Positions 1 to 6,075 of a DNA stretch of 10,698 bases are shown here, piece by piece. Below the pieces are notes generated by a model. It searched no databases and was not told the DNA's origin. It worked only from the letters and a program-made list of their open reading frames with translations. Each line of letters begins with the position of its first letter. Position 1 is the stretch's first letter. The stretch is taken from positions 1 through 10,698 of the forward strand of contig JAMCWY010000006.1 of NCBI GenBank assembly GCA_023480925.1, written 5' to 3'. The position numbers and the translations under genes are program-made. Source of the DNA: Patescibacteria group bacterium. Its GTDB lineage: Bacteria > Patescibacteriota > Minisyncoccia > UBA6257 > HR35.

Positions 1-127
1 TTTAAACGTAAGCTCAAACGGCAATGTTGGCGTTGGCACGACGACGCCTCAAGCCCTCTTTCAAGTTTGGAACACGGCCAGCTCGACCATCTATATCGGC
101 GACAGTGCCCACTCGGGTTGTTTGGCT
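1..127. repeat. Copy A of a 127-nt perfect direct repeat. Its partner is 642-768, and the identity may extend further upstream of the window.
   Basis: A manual base-by-base comparison at offset 641 found no mismatches from 1 to 127. Identity then collapses from position 128 (partner position 769) onward. Confidence 0.9.
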
Positions 128-223
128 TTGGGTAATAATGGCAATAGCGGTCTGGTCTATATCACCGTTAATAGCAGTGCGGGTATTGTTTCGACGACAA
201 CGAAGCCGTCAATTTGTCAGTAG
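1..223 (+). CDS. 3' end (74 codons) of a repeat-containing surface protein. It is a paralog of the next gene and its 5' end lies outside the window.
   Basis: Frame 2 is open from the window edge to TAG at 221-223. It is absent from the ORF track because its start is off-window. Translation: LNVSSNGNVGVGTTTPQALFQVWNTASSTIYIGDSAHSGCLALGNNGNSGLVYITVNSSAGIVSTTTKPSICQ. This is collinear with the C-terminus of ORF 244..864. Nt 1-127 are identical to nt 642-768. Confidence 0.75.
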   Translation, partial: LNVSSNGNVGVGTTTPQALFQVWNTASSTIYIGDSAHSGCLALGNNGNSGLVYITVNSSAGIVSTTTKPSICQ

Positions 224-243
224 AAAATTTTCGTTTGGAGTTA

Positions 244-864
244 ATGAAAATAAAATTTAAAAAATATTTTTTAGAAAACTCGAAACAAATTCAAATTATT
301 TTAGCTGGTTTGATTTTGACTCTAACTGTTTCAATTGTTTATATTTTTGCTTTTCAAGAACCAAGCCAAAGTCCGCCCGCCGGCCAAACGGGATTTTATT
401 CCGGCGATAGCTCAACCGTCATTGTTTTGCCTTTAAATGTTCAAGCGACGACAACGATTACCAACGGTGTTCTTGGCGTTGGTTTGACTAATCCAGCTGC
501 CACTCTTGACGTCGCCGGGACTTTGAATGTTTCCGCGACCTCGACCTTCGGCGGTAATGTCGGTATTGGCGTGTCCATACCAAACGCCAGTTTGAATGTC
601 ATCGGTACGGTTCAACTTCAAGGTTCAGGCTCAAATATTGGTTTAAACGTAAGCTCAAACGGCAATGTTGGCGTTGGCACGACGACGCCTCAAGCCCTCT
701 TTCAAGTTTGGAACACGGCCAGCTCGACCATCTATATCGGCGACAGTGCCCACTCGGGTTGTTTGGCTATTGGGATGAGTGACGGCAATGTCGGTTATAT
801 CACCACCGATAGTAACGGCAACTTACTTGTAAGCACTTCGACTAAGCCAGCAGTTTGCCAGTAA
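244..864 (+). CDS. Membrane-anchored or secreted repeat protein of unknown function. It has three GxVGxG(T/L)TxP...L.V repeats and a C-terminal Cys-Cys loop.
   Basis: The ORF track gives 214..864 with a TTG start. I prefer ATG 244, which has GGAG at 237-240 just upstream. The N-terminus MKIKFKKYFLENSKQIQIILAGLILTLTVSIVYIFAF is a basic stretch followed by one hydrophobic helix. Repeats: GVLGVGLTNPAATLDV, GGNVGIGVSIPNASLNV, NGNVGVGTTTPQALFQV. The two Cys codons are at 760-762 and 856-858. Confidence 0.8.
   Translation: MKIKFKKYFLENSKQIQIILAGLILTLTVSIVYIFAFQEPSQSPPAGQTGFYSGDSSTVIVLPLNVQATTTITNGVLGVGLTNPAATLDVAGTLNVSATSTFGGNVGIGVSIPNASLNVIGTVQLQGSGSNIGLNVSSNGNVGVGTTTPQALFQVWNTASSTIYIGDSAHSGCLAIGMSDGNVGYITTDSNGNLLVSTSTKPAVCQ
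642..768. repeat. Copy B of the 127-nt perfect direct repeat. Its partner is 1-127.
   Basis: Same comparison as for copy A. The repeat lies inside CDS 244..864 and ends two codons after the first Cys codon. Confidence 0.9.
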
Positions 865-899
865 AGGCTAAAGTCCATTTTAGGACAGCCTGTCTTTTT
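865..899 (+). terminator. Candidate intrinsic terminator between the convergent surface-protein gene and murA.
   Basis: AGGC(865-868)...GCCT(888-891) forms an outer stem and GTCC/GGAC an inner stem, followed by GTCTTTTT (892-899). The stem is imperfect. Confidence 0.4.
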
Positions 900-906
900 G
901 GCGTGA

Positions 907-2160
907 TTAGTTTATTCGTTCGATTCTGGCGCCAAGTTTTTTCAGTCGAATCTCTATTTTTTCGTAGCCGCGATCGATTTTTTCCGCTTCGTCGATAATG
1001 GTTGTGCCTTCGGCGATCAGACCGGCGATCAAAACGGCGATCCCGGCGCGAATATCGAGCGAGCGAACATTTTTGCCGATTAGGGGAGTGGGACCAATAA
1101 TCAGGGCTCGATGGGGATCGAGAATTTCGGTGTTAGCGCCCATGCAAATTAATTCTTGGAGATAACCAAAGCGGTTTTCATAAAGCCAGTCGTGAATTAA
1201 GGTTACGCCTTGAGCCTGAGTGGCCAGGACGCCGAAGGGCGGTTGCATGTCGGAGAGAAATTTTGGATACAAGCCCGTTTGAATTTTGGTTGATTTTATC
1301 TGAGTGGGCAAGACTGTTAAACTCTGGCGGTTTAAACTAAACTTAATATTCATTTCTTTAGCGACCAAGAAAAAAGAATCAAGAAATTCTTTTCTCAAAC
1401 CGATTATTTCAATTTTGCTTTTAGTCGCGGCGGCCAAGCAGGCAAAAGTGGCAAATTCGGTCAAGTCGGAAGGAATTTTGAAACGGACAAATCTTTTTAA
1501 ATGCCGATTGCCTTTAATCGTGATGAAGTTTGTGCCGAGACCTTTAATTTTTACTCCAAGTTTTTGCAAGAATTCGCCCAAAGCCTGAACCGACGGTTCG
1601 GTCGCGATCAAGCGCAAGTTAACTTCCTTTTCGATTAGACCGCAAAAAATCATTATGTTTTCAGTTGCCGTGACGCTTACTTCTTTTAGAATAATTGTTT
1701 CGTTTTTAATTTTTTCAAACCGGCCGATAATTTTATGATTAATTTCAATCTCGGCGCCTAAATCTTCAAGGGCTTGGATGTGGGTGTCGATTGGTCGTGC
1801 GCCAATAATATCGCCACCAGGCAAATCAAGCTCGGCCTTTTTGAACCGAGTCAAAAGACCGCCGAGAAGTAAAATCGAGCCGCGAAGCTTTTTTATTTCT
1901 TCGGTGAAAAGTTTTTCGTAATGAATTTTGGTCGTGTCAACTTTAAGCGTGTTTTTTCTGAGCCACTCCGCTCGTGCTCCGAGTTTTTCCAAAATTTTGA
2001 TTAAATTAAAAACATCGGCGATGAGCGGAACATTTTCAAGAACGATTACGCCATTGGTTAAAATAAGAGCGGCCAAGATTGGCAGGATTGAATTTTTATC
2101 GCCGGCCGTCGCGATTTGACCGCTTAGCTTTTTCCCGCCTTCAATGACTAACTTACTCAT
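907..2160 (-). CDS. murA: UDP-N-acetylglucosamine 1-carboxyvinyltransferase (MurA), the Asp-for-Cys active-site variant.
   Basis: Recognisable MurA over the full length: MSKLVIEGGKKLSGQIATAGDKNSILPILAA at the N-terminus and the LPGGDIIGARPIDTH loop. The ORF track starts at a TTG at 2178; ATG 2160 aligns better with MurA N-termini. Stop is TAA at 907-909. Confidence 0.93.
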   Translation of the reverse strand: MSKLVIEGGKKLSGQIATAGDKNSILPILAALILTNGVIVLENVPLIADVFNLIKILEKLGARAEWLRKNTLKVDTTKIHYEKLFTEEIKKLRGSILLLGGLLTRFKKAELDLPGGDIIGARPIDTHIQALEDLGAEIEINHKIIGRFEKIKNETIILKEVSVTATENIMIFCGLIEKEVNLRLIATEPSVQALGEFLQKLGVKIKGLGTNFITIKGNRHLKRFVRFKIPSDLTEFATFACLAAATKSKIEIIGLRKEFLDSFFLVAKEMNIKFSLNRQSLTVLPTQIKSTKIQTGLYPKFLSDMQPPFGVLATQAQGVTLIHDWLYENRFGYLQELICMGANTEILDPHRALIIGPTPLIGKNVRSLDIRAGIAVLIAGLIAEGTTIIDEAEKIDRGYEKIEIRLKKLGARIERIN

Positions 2161-2222
2161 TTTAAAATTATTATACAAAATTAAGGCCCAAATTAAATCA
2201 ATTTAAATTTCGCCCAGCTGTC

Positions 2223-3269
2223 TTAACTGAATTTATCAACGATAAAAATAATAAAAGCGAAAATCGCGCCAAGGAGATCGATTAGCCAGAATTTAAAAAC
2301 AATATTGGCCTCGTTGTTGCCGAGGGCCTCAAAATGATGATGAATCGGCGTGGAGAGAAATAACTTTTTTTTGAAAAATTTTTTCCAGAAAATTTGGAGT
2401 AAGACTGAAGTTGATTCGATTGTGAATATTGGAATCATCAGAGGCAGGAGTAGGGGCACGCCTTCAATTAGGGCGGCTAAACCGATGAAGATACCAAGAG
2501 CCATTGCGCCGGTGTCGCCCATAAAAACTTTGGCCGGATAAATATTGAACCAAAGAAAGGCTAAAATTGAGCCGATTAGAACCGCGCAAAGGGAAGCGAG
2601 ATTATAATCATGGTTGGCGAAGCTGATAAGGAGAATGACGGCGATCGAGATAACCGCGACACCGCCGAGGAGACCGTCAAGACCGTCCGTCTCATTGGCG
2701 GAAAAACTTGTGCCAAGGATTAGAAATATGATGAAAACTGAAAACCAAAAAAAGCCGAGGTAGGCGCGGCCGAGAAAGGGGACGTAGATAAAAGTAATGT
2801 TTAACTTGGTAATAAACCACCAGATAATTAAGATTGAAAAACCAAAATAAATTAAAATTTTTTCCTTGATTGTTAAACCGCCGACTGGCCGAAATTTTAA
2901 AATGCCGAGAATGTCGTCAAGACTGCCAACCAGTCCGGCTAAAACCAAAAAACCTAAAGGCAGGAGAGTTTCGCGCCGGTTAAGAAAATTTAACCAACCA
3001 AAAAGATCGGGATTAAACCTGTTGCCAACTGAAAATAAGATCGCCAGAATTAAAGGAATGAGCCAAAGAATTAATCCACCCATCGTTGGCGTGCCGGTTT
3101 TTTTTTGATGAAGCGACTGGAAGATCGGCGCGCCCTCGGTTCGGATTGATTTGCCCGCTTTGTTTTTTATTAAAAAATAATAGAGAAATGGGAAGATGGC
3201 TAAGCCAATCAAAAAGCTAAAAAGGGCGAGCGATGAAATTTTGATGATTGACAAAACCAGATCATTCAT
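2223..3269 (-). CDS. mraY: Phospho-N-acetylmuramoyl-pentapeptide transferase (MraY).
   Basis: Polytopic membrane protein carrying the MraY motifs KTGTPTMGG, SLDDILG, NETDGLDGL, VFMGDTGAMALG and PIHHHFE. Confidence 0.95.
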   Translation of the reverse strand: MNDLVLSIIKISSLALFSFLIGLAIFPFLYYFLIKNKAGKSIRTEGAPIFQSLHQKKTGTPTMGGLILWLIPLILAILFSVGNRFNPDLFGWLNFLNRRETLLPLGFLVLAGLVGSLDDILGILKFRPVGGLTIKEKILIYFGFSILIIWWFITKLNITFIYVPFLGRAYLGFFWFSVFIIFLILGTSFSANETDGLDGLLGGVAVISIAVILLISFANHDYNLASLCAVLIGSILAFLWFNIYPAKVFMGDTGAMALGIFIGLAALIEGVPLLLPLMIPIFTIESTSVLLQIFWKKFFKKKLFLSTPIHHHFEALGNNEANIVFKFWLIDLLGAIFAFIIFIVDKFS

Positions 3270-4122
3270 AGTAATCTTGGAGTTTTTTAATTATATATTC
3301 GCCGTCTTTGTCTCGGTTCTGAGAGTCAAGCAGACCGACAAAGATAAACGGCGATTTTTTAAATTTTAAGATTAAAATCAGATTTTCTCCGGAAGCTCGG
3401 CCGATGTAGCCGGTTTTCGAACCGATAATAATATTTTTATAATAGGGAAGGAGGTAGTCGATGTTAATAACGCTGTTCGGGCCAACACTAAAACTATCTT
3501 CGCGGCTGAAAGCGAAAATTTGAGGATAGTCGCGCAAGATAAGATCGGCCAGGCGGTAAAGATTGTCCAGGGTCGATTGATTGCCGGGGTCGAGCCCGGT
3601 TGGTTCGTAATAAGCCGTTTGATTCATGCCCAAACTTTTTGCTTGGCTGTTCATGATTTGAACGAACTTATCCACGCCTAAACCTTGAGCCAGAGCGTAG
3701 GCGGCGTTATTGGATGAACCGATCAGGGCGAGTTGAAGAAGATCGTCGCGAGTCAGTTTCTCACCCACGGTTAAACGGGCGATGTCGCCAGGGTATTCAT
3801 TAACGGTTTTTTGATTGATGGTAAAAATTTGATTCGGTTTATAAAGTTGGACCGAGATTAAGGCGGTCATCAGTTTTGAGAGCGAGGCGATTGGCCGGCG
3901 CTGATCCGCGTTTGAGTCGTAAAGCGTCTGACCACCGACTTCTTTGACTAAAACCGATTTGGCCGTGAGGTCATTCGAATTAAGGTTAAAAGGTTTGGTT
4001 AGGGTGAAGTCGTTGAGTGAGTAAATTGATTGTTGTTGGTTGGGTTGGCAAATTTTTTGGCTAATCGATTTTTCTAATGTTTGGTTGGTCAAGAAAAAAA
4101 GCCAAAGGAGGATCTGGGTCAT
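3262..4122 (-). CDS. Serine-type D-Ala-D-Ala carboxypeptidase (peptidase S11, PBP5-like), a short form.
   Basis: SxxK (SLSK, residues 80-83), SxN (SSN, 136-138) and KTG (236-238) occur at the spacing typical of low-molecular-weight PBPs. The N-terminus is hydrophobic (ILLWLFFL). The stop overlaps the mraY start as ATGAATGA (3262-3269), which implies co-transcription and translational coupling. Confidence 0.85.
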   Translation of the reverse strand: MTQILLWLFFLTNQTLEKSISQKICQPNQQQSIYSLNDFTLTKPFNLNSNDLTAKSVLVKEVGGQTLYDSNADQRRPIASLSKLMTALISVQLYKPNQIFTINQKTVNEYPGDIARLTVGEKLTRDDLLQLALIGSSNNAAYALAQGLGVDKFVQIMNSQAKSLGMNQTAYYEPTGLDPGNQSTLDNLYRLADLILRDYPQIFAFSREDSFSVGPNSVINIDYLLPYYKNIIIGSKTGYIGRASGENLILILKFKKSPFIFVGLLDSQNRDKDGEYIIKKLQDYYE

Positions 4123-4198
4123 AACGGAAATTTGGTCAGGCTGAATAAAATTACGCGACTTTTAAGATTTAATTATATCCGAAAATTCGGCCGAGTTA

Positions 4199-4228
4199 TT
4201 GACAAACACGCGATTTCAATTTTATAAA
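4199..4228 (+). promoter_or_regulatory. Sigma-70-like promoter TTGACA-N18-TATAAA. It may be an upstream P1 for the 5S gene or the promoter of an unannotated small RNA.
   Basis: TTGACA at 4199-4204 and TATAAA at 4223-4228 (or TTATAA with a 17-nt spacer). No ORF follows. The next recognisable plus-strand feature is the 5S rRNA, about 200 nt downstream. Confidence 0.4.
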
Positions 4229-4330
4229 CTTGATAGAAGATAAGTCGGTTTCAAGAATTAAAACTTTTTTAAACTTAACCACAGTTTTTGCCTTTTTCTG
4301 GTTCAGCGGCGTTTTTCCTTTGAGTGGCTT

Positions 4331-4339
4331 GGGGGGGGG
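4331..4339. repeat. G9 homopolymer tract in a non-coding region.
   Basis: Nine consecutive G at 4331-4339 within an AT-rich intergenic region. The tract sits in the loop between CTGGTTCA (4298-4305) and its exact complement TGAACCAG (4341-4348). Confidence 0.9.
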
Positions 4340-4395
4340 TTGAACCAGCCCGGTTTTTATTGGAAGACAGCGCTTTTAATTTTTAAAATCTGGTG

Positions 4396-4401
4396 TATAA
4401 T
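4396..4401 (+). promoter_or_regulatory. Proximal -10 box (TATAAT) for the 5S rRNA gene.
   Basis: TGTATAAT at 4394-4401 lies 26 nt upstream of the mature 5S 5' end. The sequence upstream is AT-rich and UP-like (TTTTAATTTTTAAAAT). The -35 is only weak. Confidence 0.4.
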
Positions 4402-4426
4402 ATTTGTATCAAGTTTTGTTTAAAAT

Positions 4427-4537
4427 TCCTTCGTGACCATATGGATTAGCAAGAAACACCCCTTCCCATTCCGACCAGGGTCGTGAAAGGCTAATCGCCG
4501 ATGGTAGCCGCAAGGCGAGAGTAGGTGTTGCGAAGGA
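4427..4537 (+). rRNA. rrf: 5S ribosomal RNA, about 111 nt, stand-alone and not adjacent to a 23S gene.
   Basis: Conserved 5S blocks are present: CCCAUUCCGA, CGCCGAUGGUAG and GAGAGUAGG. Helix I pairs 4427-4437 (TCCTTCGTGAC) with 4527-4537 (GTTGCGAAGGA). Helix II pairs GGATTAGC with GCTAATC. A T6 run follows at 4538-4543. Confidence 0.9.
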
Positions 4538-4622
4538 TTTTTTAGTTCAATTAACTTTTTGGGTTGGCTAAAAATATAATTTCGTTGTCGCCGCCGGATT
4601 AAAAATACGCGCTTAATTGGCG

Positions 4623-5867
4623 TTAAAGCGTTAGAAAGATCGTGATGAACATCAATATAACCGTCAGGCCGGCGATTGAGTTTGAGAGCCAATTATTTTT
4701 ATATTCGGCCATAATTTTTTTGTCGTTGGCGATTTTTAAAAGAACTAAAATTAAAAACGGCGCGATTAATCCATAAAGCAGGGCTGTGTCAAAAAGGAGT
4801 TTAATCGGCGAGATGTTGAAAAGATTGATCAGATTGGCAAAAAGAATCGAGACGACAATGAGAGCGTAAAAAGGAATCGCTTCGAAAACTTTTTTATTTA
4901 AACTCGCGGGCAGGTTGAAAATTTCCGAAACAATATAAGCGTTGGCGCCGGCCAAGACGGGAATGGCGACCAAACCGCTGGCGAAGATGCCAAGAGTGAA
5001 AAGAAGATAGGAAAAATTTCCGGCCAAGGGTTTAAGGACAAGGACGAGTTGGTTAAGCGATTGAATTTGGTTTTGACCGTGGCCGCTTAGGATCACGCCG
5101 GTTGTCAGGATAATAAAAAACATCAAAAGATTGGAGAAGAACATCCCCAAAAATGTATCGGTTCTGGCGTTTTTAATCTCGCTTCTAATCGGGATTTCTT
5201 GACGCTGGCGTTTTTGTTCATCGATTTCTTCAACTTCTTCGTCCGCTTGCCAAAAAAACAGGTAGGGAGAGATAGTCGTGCCGATAATGGCGGTGACGAC
5301 GCTGAAAAAATTATGATCGAATTTAATTTTTGGCCAAACGGCGGAATAAATAACGCTCGGCCAGTTAATTTTAATGATGAAAGCGACGGCAACATAACTG
5401 AGCATAATCAGGGTGATTGTTTTTAAAATGCCGCTGAATTTTTGATAAGAGAAAAGCAAGATGATTAGAATAATGATCAGGCTAATTAAGATTGAAAGGA
5501 GCCAAGCCGGGATGAAGGGCAAAAAAAATTGAAGGGTCGCGGCCATGCCGCTCAGATCGGCGGCAATGTTAAAAGTGACGGCGAAGAACATCGCGCCGGC
5601 GACAAGAAACAGAAAAGTCGGATGAAGTTTTTCTTTAATCACGCCGGTTAGACCTTTGTTGTTGACCAAGGCGATTCGAGCGCAGATCTCTTGGATAAAG
5701 TACATCAAAGGCAAGGTAAGCCAACTTAACCACAAAAAAGCCTGGTAACCCGCGGCCCCAGCGATTGAGTAAGTGGCGATGCCAGATGGATCGTCATCGG
5801 CCGCGCCCGTAATCCAACCGACGCCGAATTCTTTGTTGATTTTTTTTAAAGTTTCTTTTATGGCCAT
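4623..5867 (-). CDS. NRAMP/SLC11-family membrane transporter from a divergent clade with a non-canonical metal site.
   Basis: 414 aa and polytopic. The TM1 signature GAADDDPSGIATYSIAGAAGY resembles the NRAMP DPGN region. The TM6 region GTTISPYLFFWQ sits where canonical MntH has AxxMPHN. An acidic or charged loop follows (ADEEVEEIDEQKRQRQE). Confidence 0.8.
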   Translation of the reverse strand: MAIKETLKKINKEFGVGWITGAADDDPSGIATYSIAGAAGYQAFLWLSWLTLPLMYFIQEICARIALVNNKGLTGVIKEKLHPTFLFLVAGAMFFAVTFNIAADLSGMAATLQFFLPFIPAWLLSILISLIIILIILLFSYQKFSGILKTITLIMLSYVAVAFIIKINWPSVIYSAVWPKIKFDHNFFSVVTAIIGTTISPYLFFWQADEEVEEIDEQKRQRQEIPIRSEIKNARTDTFLGMFFSNLLMFFIILTTGVILSGHGQNQIQSLNQLVLVLKPLAGNFSYLLFTLGIFASGLVAIPVLAGANAYIVSEIFNLPASLNKKVFEAIPFYALIVVSILFANLINLFNISPIKLLFDTALLYGLIAPFLILVLLKIANDKKIMAEYKNNWLSNSIAGLTVILMFITIFLTL

Positions 5868-5873
5868 TGTTTA

Positions 5874-5879
5874 ATTATA
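5874..5879 (-). promoter_or_regulatory. TATAAT -10 box 6 nt upstream of the NRAMP-like ATG, suggesting a leaderless mRNA.
   Basis: The minus strand reads TATAAT-TAAACA-ATG, with the ATG at 5865-5867. There is no Shine-Dalgarno sequence. Confidence 0.35.
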
Positions 5880-5988
5880 GCCAAAGTCAAAGTCGTTTGA
5901 CCGGGTAATTAGTCAAAAGGCGAAAAAATATTTTTGGGTTGATTTTTTAAAAAATAGTTAAAATTAAAGTTATAAGTTAAAGTAGCAA

Positions 5989-6075
5989 GCCCGGGTGGTG
6001 GAATTGGCATACACGCAAGACTTAAAATCTTGTGGCCGCGAGGCTGTGAGGGTTCGAGTCCCTCTCCGGGCACCA
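5989..6075 (+). tRNA. tRNA-Leu(UAA), class II with a long variable arm and an encoded CCA.
   Basis: The acceptor stem pairs GCCCGGG with TCCGGGC. The anticodon stem CAAGA/TCTTG carries the loop CTTAAAA. The variable arm is TGGCCGCGAGGCTGT. The T arm is GAGGG-TTCGAGT-CCCTC. The discriminator is A, followed by CCA at 6073-6075. Confidence 0.95.

What the first reader, a model, noticed from the sequence alone, without database searches (positions are those of the whole stretch)
1..864. Tandem surface-protein paralogs: perfect identity stops abruptly at the start of a Cys-Cys bounded C-terminal loop
An unlisted frame-2 reading frame (1-223, stop TAG) encodes the C-terminus of a gene paralogous to the next gene (244-864). 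The two are separated by only 20 nt.

Nt 1-127 and 642-768 are identical, with no mismatches in my manual comparison. The next 96 nt have the same length in both copies but are only roughly half identical. The differences include many synonymous changes (CCG/CCA, TGT/TGC), compensating codon indels and different stop codons (TAG vs TAA).

The breakpoint lies two codons after the first Cys (119-121 and 760-762). The divergent block ends at the second Cys, which is the penultimate residue (215-217 and 856-858). The variable module is therefore exactly the putative disulfide-bounded loop of a membrane-anchored, beta-repeat (GNVGIGTTxP) protein.

A 100%-then-about-50% mosaic is not expected from simple divergence after duplication. 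It suggests recent gene conversion or cassette exchange that homogenises the scaffold while loop variants are kept. This is conceptually like pilE/pilS or other contingency surface-antigen families. In a small-genome, host-attached bacterium this could be a variable adhesin or receptor-binding system. It is my best candidate for something undescribed in this window.
Basis: partly seen in the sequence, partly recalled or inferred. Interest (0 to 1): 0.7.

Follow-up and report, generated by a model that had tools for sequence, protein, structure and literature searches.

The report
Tandem fibre-protein paralogs undergoing gene conversion
Two neighbouring genes of an ultra-small (Patescibacteria) bacterium encode short, tail-fibre-like surface proteins whose middle part is kept almost identical by repeated copying between the two genes, while their membrane-anchor ends and two-cysteine tips stay different. 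This is a clear but ordinary case of concerted evolution, not an antigen-switching system.

Summary
Nt 1-127 equal 642-768 exactly, and the next 96 nt are 49% identical.

The 127-nt length is set by the contig end. The window is a whole 10,698-nt MAG contig that begins inside the upstream gene. Related assemblies show the full locus: tpiA, g1 (196 aa), a 20-nt spacer, g2 (206 aa), then murA on the opposite strand. There are only these two copies.

The paralogs share a 339-nt core (window 430-768; dS 0.12). It lies between an N-terminal anchor segment and a C-terminal tip segment that are both saturated at synonymous sites.

Core variants group by genome rather than by paralog, and core haplotypes sit in different paralogs in different strains.

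The pilE/pilS-like cassette idea fails. There are no silent copies, both tips are fixed across strains, and they evolve under purifying selection.

The "loop" is most of a conserved, unnamed two-Cys C-terminal domain found in many secreted fibre-like proteins and in at least one phage. The stalk repeat matches Bdellovibrio MAT fibres and phage tail fibres.

The best reading is two mini-fibre adhesin candidates with different tips. Adhesin function is inferred, not shown.

The parts
1..223 (+). 3' end of paralog g1 (73 codons plus TAG). The gene is cut by the contig end. Its 5' half lies on another contig of the same MAG.
   Evidence: Translation. Annotated as M1505_00450, partial. The complete 196-aa ortholog is at L001:9390-9980. 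The N-terminal fragment P0225 is at the end of a 41,268-nt contig of the same MAG.
1..127 (+). g1 copy of the homogenised core. This is the last 127 nt of a tract that is about 339 nt in complete loci. It is identical to 642-768.
   Evidence: 127/127 identity. The left limit is the contig end. The Logan k=31 contig shows the same geometry.
128..223 (+). g1-specific tip segment (LGNNGNSGLVYITVNSSAGIVSTTTKPSICQ*). The second Cys codon is at 215-217.
   Evidence: 47/96 nt identity to the g2 tip. Synonymous sites are saturated between the paralogs. The segment is conserved across strains, with 0-2 aa changes.
224..243 (+). 20-nt spacer with GGAG (237-240) upstream of the g2 start codon.
   Evidence: Sequence. 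The spacer is identical in L003.
244..864 (+). Paralog g2, 206 aa (MCL5257700.1, hypothetical protein M1505_00455).
   Evidence: ORF list. 100% match to P0001.
244..429 (+). g2-specific N-terminal segment. It holds the only hydrophobic helix (aa 18-36, nt 295-351) and the motif IFAFQEPSQSPPAG (nt 343-384), which g1 shares as IFAFTNPTQSPPNG.
   Evidence: Paralog aa identity is 37% and dS is saturated. AF2 predicts a helix at aa 5-36 with pLDDT about 85. Hydropathy peak is 2.56, with no second peak.
430..768 (+). Homogenised core, or stalk (aa 63-175). It carries three (N/G)G(N)VGxGxxxPxxxLxV repeats at nt 463-513, 550-600 and 658-708. It also holds the first strand of the tip domain, including Cys173 (760-762).
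   Evidence: 12 of 339 mismatches between the paralogs in L001 (dS 0.12). In the window lineage, 1 of 306 known positions differ. The repeat profile hits Bdellovibrio MAT fibre structures 8OND, 8OML, 8OJN, 8OL4 and 8ON4 and PHROG tail-fibre families.
769..864 (+). g2-specific tip segment (IGMSDGNVGYITTDSNGNLLVSTSTKPAVCQ*). The second Cys codon is at 856-858.
   Evidence: AF2 predicts three strands at aa 170-177, 183-188 and 194-198 with pLDDT about 80.

Best explanation
The locus holds two tandem, probably co-transcribed genes in a Patescibacteria genome: tpiA, g1, a 20-nt spacer, then g2.

Each gene encodes a roughly 200-aa secreted or membrane-anchored mini-fibre with four parts:
- an N-terminal hydrophobic signal or anchor;
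- a short Pro-rich linker;
- a stalk of three 'GNVGIGTTxPxxxLxV' repeats of the type found in phage tail fibres and Bdellovibrio MAT adhesins;
- a small C-terminal beta domain framed by two invariant cysteines.

The duplication is old. Both the anchor-coding and tip-coding ends are saturated at synonymous sites. The 339-nt stalk-coding core is repeatedly overwritten by homologous recombination between the two copies (non-reciprocal gene conversion). One assembly also shows an apparent unequal-crossover fusion.

Conversion tracts stop where homology stops. One limit is the start of the stalk. The other lies two codons after the first Cys. This produces the abrupt step from 100% to about 50% identity.

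The two tips are stable, selectively maintained alternatives, not a switching repertoire. The likely function is cell-surface binding through two different tips, for example to a host cell or another surface ligand.

What is shown: the gene structure, the boundaries, concerted evolution, conservation of the tip family, and homology of the stalk repeat.

What is inferred: trimeric fibre architecture, a disulfide between the two Cys, surface exposure, and adhesin function.
For: 1. Complete locus. A strain with 97.5% nt identity carries the full locus on a 344-kb contig. It has exactly two paralogs, with tpiA upstream and murA convergent downstream.

2. Three-part mosaic between the paralogs in L001:
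- N-terminal segment: dS 3.8, aa identity 37%.
- Core: dS 0.12, aa identity 98%.
- Tip: dS saturated, aa identity 47%.

3. Concerted evolution, window lineage versus L001. Of 306 core positions, 4 sites group by genome and 1 by paralog. In the 96-nt tip, 42 sites group by paralog and 1 by genome. Fisher p = 1.3e-4.

The private non-synonymous variant at 470 (Ala to Val in TNGVLGVG) occurs in both g1 (P0225, same MAG) and g2 of the window lineage. It occurs in no other strain.

4. Core haplotypes move between paralogs. The g2 core of L003 differs by 2 nt from the g1 core of L001, but by 10 nt from the g2 core of L001. Its own N-terminal segment differs from g2 of L001 by only 1 of 186 nt. The distinguishing sites at 468-501 lie within 72 nt of paralog-specific sequence, so they are phased within single reads or k-mers.

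5. Fusion gene. L002 carries a single gene made of the g1 anchor, a g2-type core and the g2 tip (P0004). Its flanks are otherwise nearly identical to L001.

6. Tip family. All 30 distinct ORFs recovered solely by the terminal 'TTTKPxxCQ*' pattern also carry the upstream 'GC' Cys 26-31 residues earlier. Most that are complete at the N-terminus start with a signal peptide. One member carries a YadA_head repeat.

7. Stalk. The repeat profile hits MAT fibre crystal structures, with E = 2e-11 for 8OND. PHROG tail-fibre families also match. The MAT paper describes intertwined trimers with swappable tips (PMC10769870).

8. No other diversification machinery. The window neighbours are all housekeeping genes. 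Tip mismatches are not adenine-specific.
Against: - No experimental or structural evidence exists for surface exposure, trimerisation or binding.
- The AF2 monomer model is poor for the stalk (pLDDT below 55) and only moderate for the tip (about 70-85).
- The tip model has no significant structural match.
- Part of the g1 core used for the window lineage (430-608) comes from a sister MAG (M1525, L095). For the window's own MAG only the protein fragment P0225 is available.
- All comparisons rest on metagenome assemblies of a repeat. The L002 fusion could be an assembly collapse.
- Only about 4-5 strains or samples are available.
- The N-terminal segment could be a cleaved signal peptide (IFA|F). 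The mature protein would then not be membrane-anchored.
Confidence: 0.8

Rival explanations
1. This is a contingency or antigenic-variation system. The tips are cassettes exchanged onto a constant scaffold, as in pilE/pilS or other programmed surface-antigen switching.
For: - The constant scaffold plus divergent tips superficially resembles such systems.
- One assembly (L002) joins the g1 anchor to the g2 tip.
- Diversity between otherwise near-identical strains is concentrated around tip 2, with 13 differences in 732-1249 against 1 in about 12 kb.
Against: - Only two copies exist, and both are complete genes. No further close relatives were found among 5.8 billion proteins or 1.84 billion representatives. 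The only hits at 76% identity or above to the window protein (P0011 and P0019) are fragments of g1 itself; the next best are 59% or lower.
- The same two tips occur in all strains, under purifying selection.
- The L002 junction lies at the 5' edge of the core, not at the Cys boundary.
- No recombinase, reverse transcriptase or invertible elements lie nearby.
- The recombination patch around tip 2 also covers about 390 nt of murA, so it looks like ordinary allelic import.
Confidence: 0.04
2. This is an assembly artefact. The upstream partial copy is a mis-join or a strain variant of a single gene, and no real tandem duplication exists.
For: - The repeat touches the contig end at exactly 127 nt, a common assembler k.
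- g1 is split over two contigs in two sister MAGs.
- One MEGAHIT assembly shows a single gene.
Against: - The window itself reads g1 tip, spacer, g2 start, g2 core and g2 tip continuously.
- The same tandem arrangement occurs in an independent 344-kb contig (L001) and in a MEGAHIT contig from another sample (L003).
- The g1 and g2 anchors and tips are saturated at synonymous sites, which is far beyond strain-level variation.
Confidence: 0.03
3. A one-off recent partial duplication or domain replacement of the core occurred in the common ancestor, followed by simple divergence. There is no ongoing conversion.
For: In L001 the two cores differ at 12 of 339 sites. This could be read as divergence since a single event.
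Against: - Divergence between the cores differs by lineage: 12 mismatches in L001 against 1 in 306 in the window lineage.
- Private variants are shared by both copies within a lineage.
- Core haplotypes have swapped between paralogs in L003 relative to L001.
- These patterns require exchanges after the strains split.
Confidence: 0.08
4. This is a diversity-generating retroelement target. The tip would be a variable repeat mutagenised from a template repeat.
For: DGRs are common in Patescibacteria and target C-terminal ligand-binding domains (general knowledge, not tested by a search here).
Against: - Mismatches between the tips occur at all four bases, with T 17, G 16, A 11 and C 5 by g1 base.
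- The tips contain codon indels.
- No reverse transcriptase is present in the window.
- The tips are stable between strains.
Confidence: 0.01

Closest known systems
Mosaic adhesive trimer (MAT) fibres of Bdellovibrio bacteriovorus (Caulton et al. 2024, PMC10769870; PDB 8OND, 8OML, 8OJN/8ONB, 8OL4, 8ON4)
   Same: - The stalk repeat 'GNvGiGTxxPxxxLxV' is shared and detectable by profile search (E = 2e-11 to 3e-3).
- Both have an N-terminal signal, a constant presentation end with a variable C-terminal tip that folds on its own, and several paralogs per genome.
- The paper proposes 'tip swapping'.
   Different: - The proteins here are 196-206 aa, against about 1,000 aa for MAT fibres.
- They have no room for the roughly 130-aa conserved N-terminal beta-rich domain that all 21 MATs share.
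- They have no S74 domain.
- The tip is a different, unnamed two-Cys domain.
- The host is a Patescibacteria MAG, not a predator with demonstrated fibre function.
- Trimerisation is untested.
Phage tail fibres and tailspikes with the same beta-helix repeat (PHROG 9942 and 18345; Peptidase_S74 / PF13884-type proteins)
   Same: - The repeat motif is shared. The nearest annotated protein is a 'tail fiber domain-containing protein' with PF13884 (P0002).
- The two-Cys tip module also occurs in a genuine phage contig, next to the major head gene (L051).
   Different: - There is no phage context in the window.
- There is no S74 chaperone domain.
- The proteins carry an N-terminal signal or anchor instead of a virion-attachment domain.
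Concerted evolution of duplicated bacterial genes by RecA-dependent gene conversion, with tufA/tufB of Salmonella as the textbook example (own knowledge)
   Same: - The paralogs are more alike within a genome than orthologs are between genomes.
- The conversion tract is bounded by the limits of homology.
- Occasional unequal crossover gives fusions or deletions.
   Different: - The copies here are tandem and only 20 nt apart.
- Only the middle third of the gene is converted.
- Both flanking thirds are held divergent, so conversion acts on one module of a modular surface protein.
Neisseria pilE/pilS antigenic variation (own knowledge)
   Same: Non-reciprocal recombination occurs between related sequences of a surface protein. 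In pilin, too, the variable region is flanked by two cysteines.
   Different: - In pilE/pilS the variable part is what is transferred, from many silent promoterless cassettes into one expression locus.
- Here the constant part is what is transferred.
- There are only two complete genes, and the variable parts are stable.

Membership tests
MAT (mosaic adhesive trimer) superfamily sensu Caulton et al. 2024 | Stalk built from beta-helix/beta-prism repeats with the capping-loop motif (V-G-x-pi-x-x-P-x-x-x-L) | tested here: met
   Three motif copies lie at aa 74-90, 103-119 and 139-155. The profile hits 8OND (E = 2e-11), 8OML, 8OJN, 8OL4 and 8ON4, all through this motif.
MAT (mosaic adhesive trimer) superfamily sensu Caulton et al. 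2024 | Conserved beta-rich domain of about 130 aa immediately after the signal peptide, present in all 21 MATs | tested here: not met
   Only about 26 residues (aa 37-62) separate the hydrophobic segment from the first stalk residue. This criterion comes from the paper.
MAT (mosaic adhesive trimer) superfamily sensu Caulton et al. 2024 | Intertwined homotrimer along the whole fibre | not testable with these tools
   Only monomer AF2 prediction was available. The low stalk confidence (pLDDT below 55) is compatible with an obligate oligomer but does not prove one.
MAT (mosaic adhesive trimer) superfamily sensu Caulton et al. 2024 | Independently folding, diversified C-terminal tip | tested here: inconclusive
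   The tip is modelled as a three-stranded beta unit with pLDDT about 75-88. It differs between the paralogs. No structural match confirms an adhesive fold.
S74-type phage tail fibre/spike (Peptidase_S74 intramolecular chaperone) | C-terminal S74 chaperone/protease domain with an SDxxxK motif | tested here: not met
   There is no Pfam hit above threshold. The protein ends in ...TKPAVCQ.
pilE/pilS-type antigenic variation | One expression locus plus multiple silent, promoterless, truncated cassettes | tested here: not met
   Exactly two complete genes lie at the locus in L001. The protein searches found no further close paralogs. The rest of the genome was not scanned at the DNA level.
pilE/pilS-type antigenic variation | The variable segment differs among cells or strains through cassette transfer | tested here: not met
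   Tip 1 and tip 2 are each conserved across the window, L001, L002 and L003, with 0-3 aa changes and dN/dS of 0.05-0.46.
Diversity-generating retroelement target | Nearby reverse transcriptase and a TR/VR pair differing only at template adenines | tested here: not met
   No RT is present among the window genes. The mismatch spectrum is not A-specific.
Concerted evolution by inter-paralog gene conversion | Within the tract, paralogs of one genome share derived variants that are absent from orthologs. Outside the tract, sequences group by paralog. | tested here: met
   In the core, 4 sites group by genome and 1 by paralog. In the tip, 1 site groups by genome and 42 by paralog. Fisher p = 1.3e-4.
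Concerted evolution by inter-paralog gene conversion | Mosaic tracts: a haplotype characteristic of one paralog appears in the other paralog in a related strain | tested here: met
   The g2 core of L003 is 2 nt from the g1 core of L001 and 10 nt from the g2 core of L001.
Unnamed two-Cys C-terminal tip domain family (defined here) | C-terminal ...STIxIG(4-9 aa)GC(26-31 aa, including a conserved Tyr)TTTKPxxC[QK]-stop, preceded by a GNVGIGT repeat | tested here: met
   Both paralogs align throughout with P0082, P0094, P0132, P0155 and P0156-P0163. They also align with 30 metagenomic or viral ORFs. No Pfam or NCBIfam model covers the domain.

The most novel reading that the evidence does not exclude
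The two-Cys C-terminal module may be an undescribed receptor-binding tip. It would be used by miniature MAT-like fibres of episymbiotic Patescibacteria, by larger secreted fibres in other bacteria, and by at least one phage.

On this reading, the homogenised stalk acts as a built-in recombination handle. It would let anchors and tips be re-assorted in nature. Two observations fit this:
- the L002 gene that joins the g1 anchor to the g2 tip;
- the imported allele patch that starts inside the core and covers tip 2.

The pair would then be a minimal, natural 'tip-swapping' host-recognition system.
Probability: 0.2. Interest if true: 0.6.

Novelty: new member of a known kind. Interest (0 to 1): 0.35.

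Why it matters
How Patescibacteria recognise and attach to their hosts is largely unknown beyond type IV pili. These are small, constitutively placed genes directly downstream of tpiA. They carry a tail-fibre/MAT-type stalk and two alternative conserved tips, so they are reasonable candidates for binding proteins. The two-Cys tip domain is widespread and has no Pfam or NCBIfam model.

The evolutionary phenomenon itself is textbook: gene conversion confined to one module of tandem paralogs. It also shows how an exact repeat at a contig end can be mistaken for a biologically defined tract length.

Tried and rejected
- Pfam and NCBIfam on both paralogs gave nothing significant.
- The word-indexed protein search with the full protein gave only the protein itself plus one tail-fibre fragment.
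- The genome-contig scan with the tip alignment was swamped by generic GNVGIGTT repeat proteins. None of the ten loci with the longest matches ends in the tip module, and a motif scan of all fetched loci found it only in L001-L003.
- A codon-degenerate core pattern has no match in JGI metagenome contigs, so no additional strains came from that source.
- AF2 of the full protein gave mean pLDDT 61.6, and AF2 of the 73-aa C-terminus gave 68.5.
- Foldseek against PDB and BFVD gave no hit with E below 0.1. The afdb50 library was unavailable.
- phmmer of the single sequence against PDB gave only a spurious Fab hit.
- A literature search for the motif string 'NVGIGT' found 0 papers.
- The promoter and terminator scan of 1-1100 gave nothing above shuffled expectation.
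- The DGR idea was rejected on the mismatch spectrum and the absence of an RT.
- The exact k=127 explanation for the contig start is plausible but unproven. The sister contig ends at window-equivalent 608, and the window MAG's own upstream fragment ends at about 603-605. These fit k=127 only if an unseen g1/g2 difference lies near 477-481.
- Look-ups of P0001 and P0225 by exact sequence found no contig on record.
Full report
**1. The observation**

Nt 1-127 and 642-768 are identical at 127 of 127 positions, and the first mismatch is at 128/769. The following 96 nt have the same length in both copies and are 47 of 96 identical. The stop codons are TAG and TAA. This is the only long repeat in the window.

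Frame 2 of 1-223 encodes ...GNVGVGTTTPQALFQVWNTASSTIYIGDSAHSGCLALGNNGNSGLVYITVNSSAGIVSTTTKPSICQ*. The gene at 244-864 encodes a 206-aa protein with the same sequence up to GCLA, followed by IGMSDGNVGYITTDSNGNLLVSTSTKPAVCQ*.

**2. The 127-nt length is an assembly boundary**

The 206-aa protein is MCL5257700.1 (M1505_00455) of a Patescibacteria MAG. Its contig is 10,698 nt long, the same as the window. The upstream ORF is annotated 'M1505_00450, partial'. Position 1 is therefore a contig end.

The missing 5' half of that gene is P0225 (M1505_01635, partial, 110 aa), at the end of a 41,268-nt contig of the same MAG. A sister MAG (M1525, GCA_023381135.1) has a contig reading dnaE-infB-tpiA-g1'. 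That contig ends at window-equivalent 608. Its g1 core differs from the window's g2 core at one position (489) in 179.

The exact repeat in this lineage is therefore probably about 280-290 nt long, and about 35 nt were never assembled. A Logan (k=31) assembly of the same locus begins exactly 30 nt (k-1) before the divergence point at 769. The window begins 127 nt before that point, and 127 is a common maximum k. This is the geometry expected when a de Bruijn assembler breaks at a repeat. That k was 127 is an inference.

**3. The complete locus**

A strain with 97.5% nt identity over window 1-6073 (L001, GCA_027328755.1, 344-kb contig) carries the full locus. It reads tpiA, an 8-nt gap, g1 (196 aa), 20 nt, g2 (206 aa), then convergent murA, mraY and a PBP5-like gene. 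Exactly two paralogs are present.

Aligning them shows a three-part mosaic:
- N-terminal 156/186 nt: aa identity 37%, dS 3.8.
- 339-nt core, equivalent to window 430-768: 12 mismatches, dS 0.12, aa identity 98%.
- 96-nt tip segment: aa identity 47%, dS saturated.

The divergence is therefore two-sided.

**4. Gene conversion is shown, and it is recurrent**

I compared the window lineage with L001. For the window lineage, g2 came from the window. g1 came from window 1-127 plus L095 for positions 430-608. Of 306 core positions, 4 sites group the two paralogs of one genome against those of the other, and 1 site groups by paralog. In the tip, 42 sites group by paralog and 1 by genome. Fisher p = 1.3e-4.

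One genome-grouping site is a non-synonymous private variant, Ala to Val in TNGVLGVG. It is present in g2 of the window and in the g1 fragment of the same MAG (P0225). It is absent from all other strains.

In a third strain (L003), the g2 core differs from the g1 core of L001 at 2 sites but from the g2 core of L001 at 10. Its N-terminal segment differs from g2 of L001 at only 1 of 186 sites. The informative sites at 468-501 lie within 72 nt of paralog-specific sequence, so mis-phasing by an assembler is unlikely.

The simplest history starts from an L001-like ancestor with distinct core haplotypes and needs three events:
- a g1-to-g2 conversion in L003;
- homogenisation, plus shared private mutations, in the window lineage;
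- the fusion seen in L002.

**5. The L002 fusion**

A 107-kb MEGAHIT contig (L002) carries a single 196-aa gene (P0004) between tpiA and murA. The gene consists of the g1 anchor, a g2-type core and the g2 tip. Its junction lies in the 38-nt identical stretch at the 5' edge of the core.

Its background is nearly identical to L001, with 1 mismatch in 6.1 kb upstream. In L001 the two cores share no exact run of 141 nt, so a k=141 collapse is not expected. I therefore favour a real unequal-crossover deletion, at roughly 60%, but cannot exclude an assembly artefact.

**6. The tips are not hypervariable**

Across the window, L001, L002 and L003, tip 1 shows 0-2 aa changes and tip 2 shows 1-3. dN/dS is 0.05-0.19 for tip 2 and 0.46 for tip 1, the latter based on only five substitutions.

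There is a local excess of nucleotide differences around tip 2. L001 and L002 differ at 13 sites in 732-1249, against 1 in the other roughly 12 kb. This patch also covers the 3' end of murA and looks like ordinary allelic import.

Tip mismatches are not adenine-specific. The window contains only housekeeping genes, with no RT, recombinase or phage genes. Protein searches found no other close paralogs. The pilE/pilS-like and DGR readings are therefore rejected.

**7. What the protein is**

Pfam and NCBIfam give nothing. PHROGs give weak tail-fibre hits. An exhaustive HMMER search finds more than 4,000 proteins, mostly giant repeat proteins that share the 'GNVGIGTTxP' repeat. A few smaller proteins also match through to the last residue (P0082, P0094, P0132, P0155).

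A profile of the C-terminal 73 aa retrieves many short, unannotated proteins with the same ending. A DNA pattern for 'TTTKPxxCQ-stop' retrieves about 35 ORFs of 95-957 aa from metagenomes and IMG/VR. Many are cut by a contig end. Of the complete ones, most start with a signal peptide. In all 30 distinct sequences the upstream 'GC' cysteine is present 26-31 residues before the terminal Cys.

The Cys-bounded segment is therefore the bulk of a conserved, unnamed C-terminal domain. AF2 models it as a three-stranded beta unit with pLDDT about 75-88. It models the N-terminus as one helix (aa 5-36) and the stalk with low confidence. No significant structural neighbour was found.

The stalk repeat is detectably homologous to the crystal structures of Bdellovibrio MAT fibres. 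The hits are 8OND (E = 2e-11), 8OML, 8OJN, 8OL4 and 8ON4. Those fibres are intertwined trimers with a constant presentation end and diversified tips (PMC10769870).

Further context comes from three other loci:
- One large family member has a YadA_head repeat.
- A genuine phage contig (terminase, major head protein) encodes a 129-aa member right after the head gene.
- Another organism has two adjacent members (L075).

**8. Mechanism and function**

Shown:
- an old tandem duplicate;
- module boundaries conserved across all four strains;
- recurrent homologous exchange confined to the stalk-coding core;
- stable, purifying-selected anchors and tips.

Inferred:
- Conversion tracts end where homology ends.
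- Selection keeps the two anchors and two tips different.
- The proteins are Sec-exported, either anchored or cleaved at IFA|F.
- They are trimeric.
- They are disulfide-stabilised at the tip.
- They bind two different ligands.

**9. Verdict**

The contingency-system interpretation is wrong, and the tract length is an assembly artefact. Against the known families, this is a new small member of the tail-fibre/MAT-like fibre kind, with an undescribed but widespread tip domain, evolving by a well-known mechanism. Interest is moderate to low.

Noticed in passing
window 5989-6075 (tRNA-Leu), with the synteny break at 6073: Collinearity with the 97.5%-identical strain L001 stops exactly at the 3' end of tRNA-Leu(UAA). 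The window continues with tRNA-Thr, an RNaseH-like protein, TyrRS, Tgt, L10 and L7/L12. L001 continues with a periplasmic-binding protein, small ORFs, a methyltransferase and a radical-SAM gene. This looks like an island or rearrangement at a tRNA gene.
   Followed up: partly
window 4429-4536 (+): A lone 5S rRNA gene lies between the PBP5-like gene and the Nramp gene, with no 16S or 23S rRNA gene in the window. The spurious ORF at 4420-4692 (-) overlaps it.
   Followed up: no
window-equivalent 732-1249 in L001 versus L002/L003: Two otherwise near-identical strains differ at 13 sites within about 520 nt, against 1 mismatch in about 12 kb. The patch runs from the 3' end of the core through tip 2 into the 3' end of murA. 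L001 shares 9 of the 13 states with the window. This looks like an imported recombination tract with one end inside the homogenised core.
   Followed up: partly
L051:8600-8989 (IMG/VR UViG_3300005098_000004); the same gene occurs in L074: A genuine phage contig (large terminase, major head protein) encodes a 129-aa protein directly downstream of the major head gene. The protein has an N-terminal hydrophobic helix and the same two-Cys C-terminal module. It could be a head fibre or decoration protein that uses this tip.
   Followed up: partly
L075:562-2783 (-): Another, unrelated metagenomic organism has two adjacent and slightly overlapping ORFs (486 and 325 codons from the preceding stop), both ending in the two-Cys module. 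Tandem arrangement of this family may therefore be recurrent.
   Followed up: no
window 343-384, and g1 in L001/L095: The two N-terminal segments are otherwise saturated, but both keep the motif IFAF(T/Q)xP(T/S)QSPPxG right after the hydrophobic helix. It may be a signal-peptidase or other processing site followed by a Pro-rich linker.
   Followed up: no
L089:5148-7985 (-): A 946-aa protein ending in the two-Cys module also contains a YadA_head repeat (PF05658, E = 5.6e-9). This links the tip module to trimeric-adhesin-type architectures.
   Followed up: no
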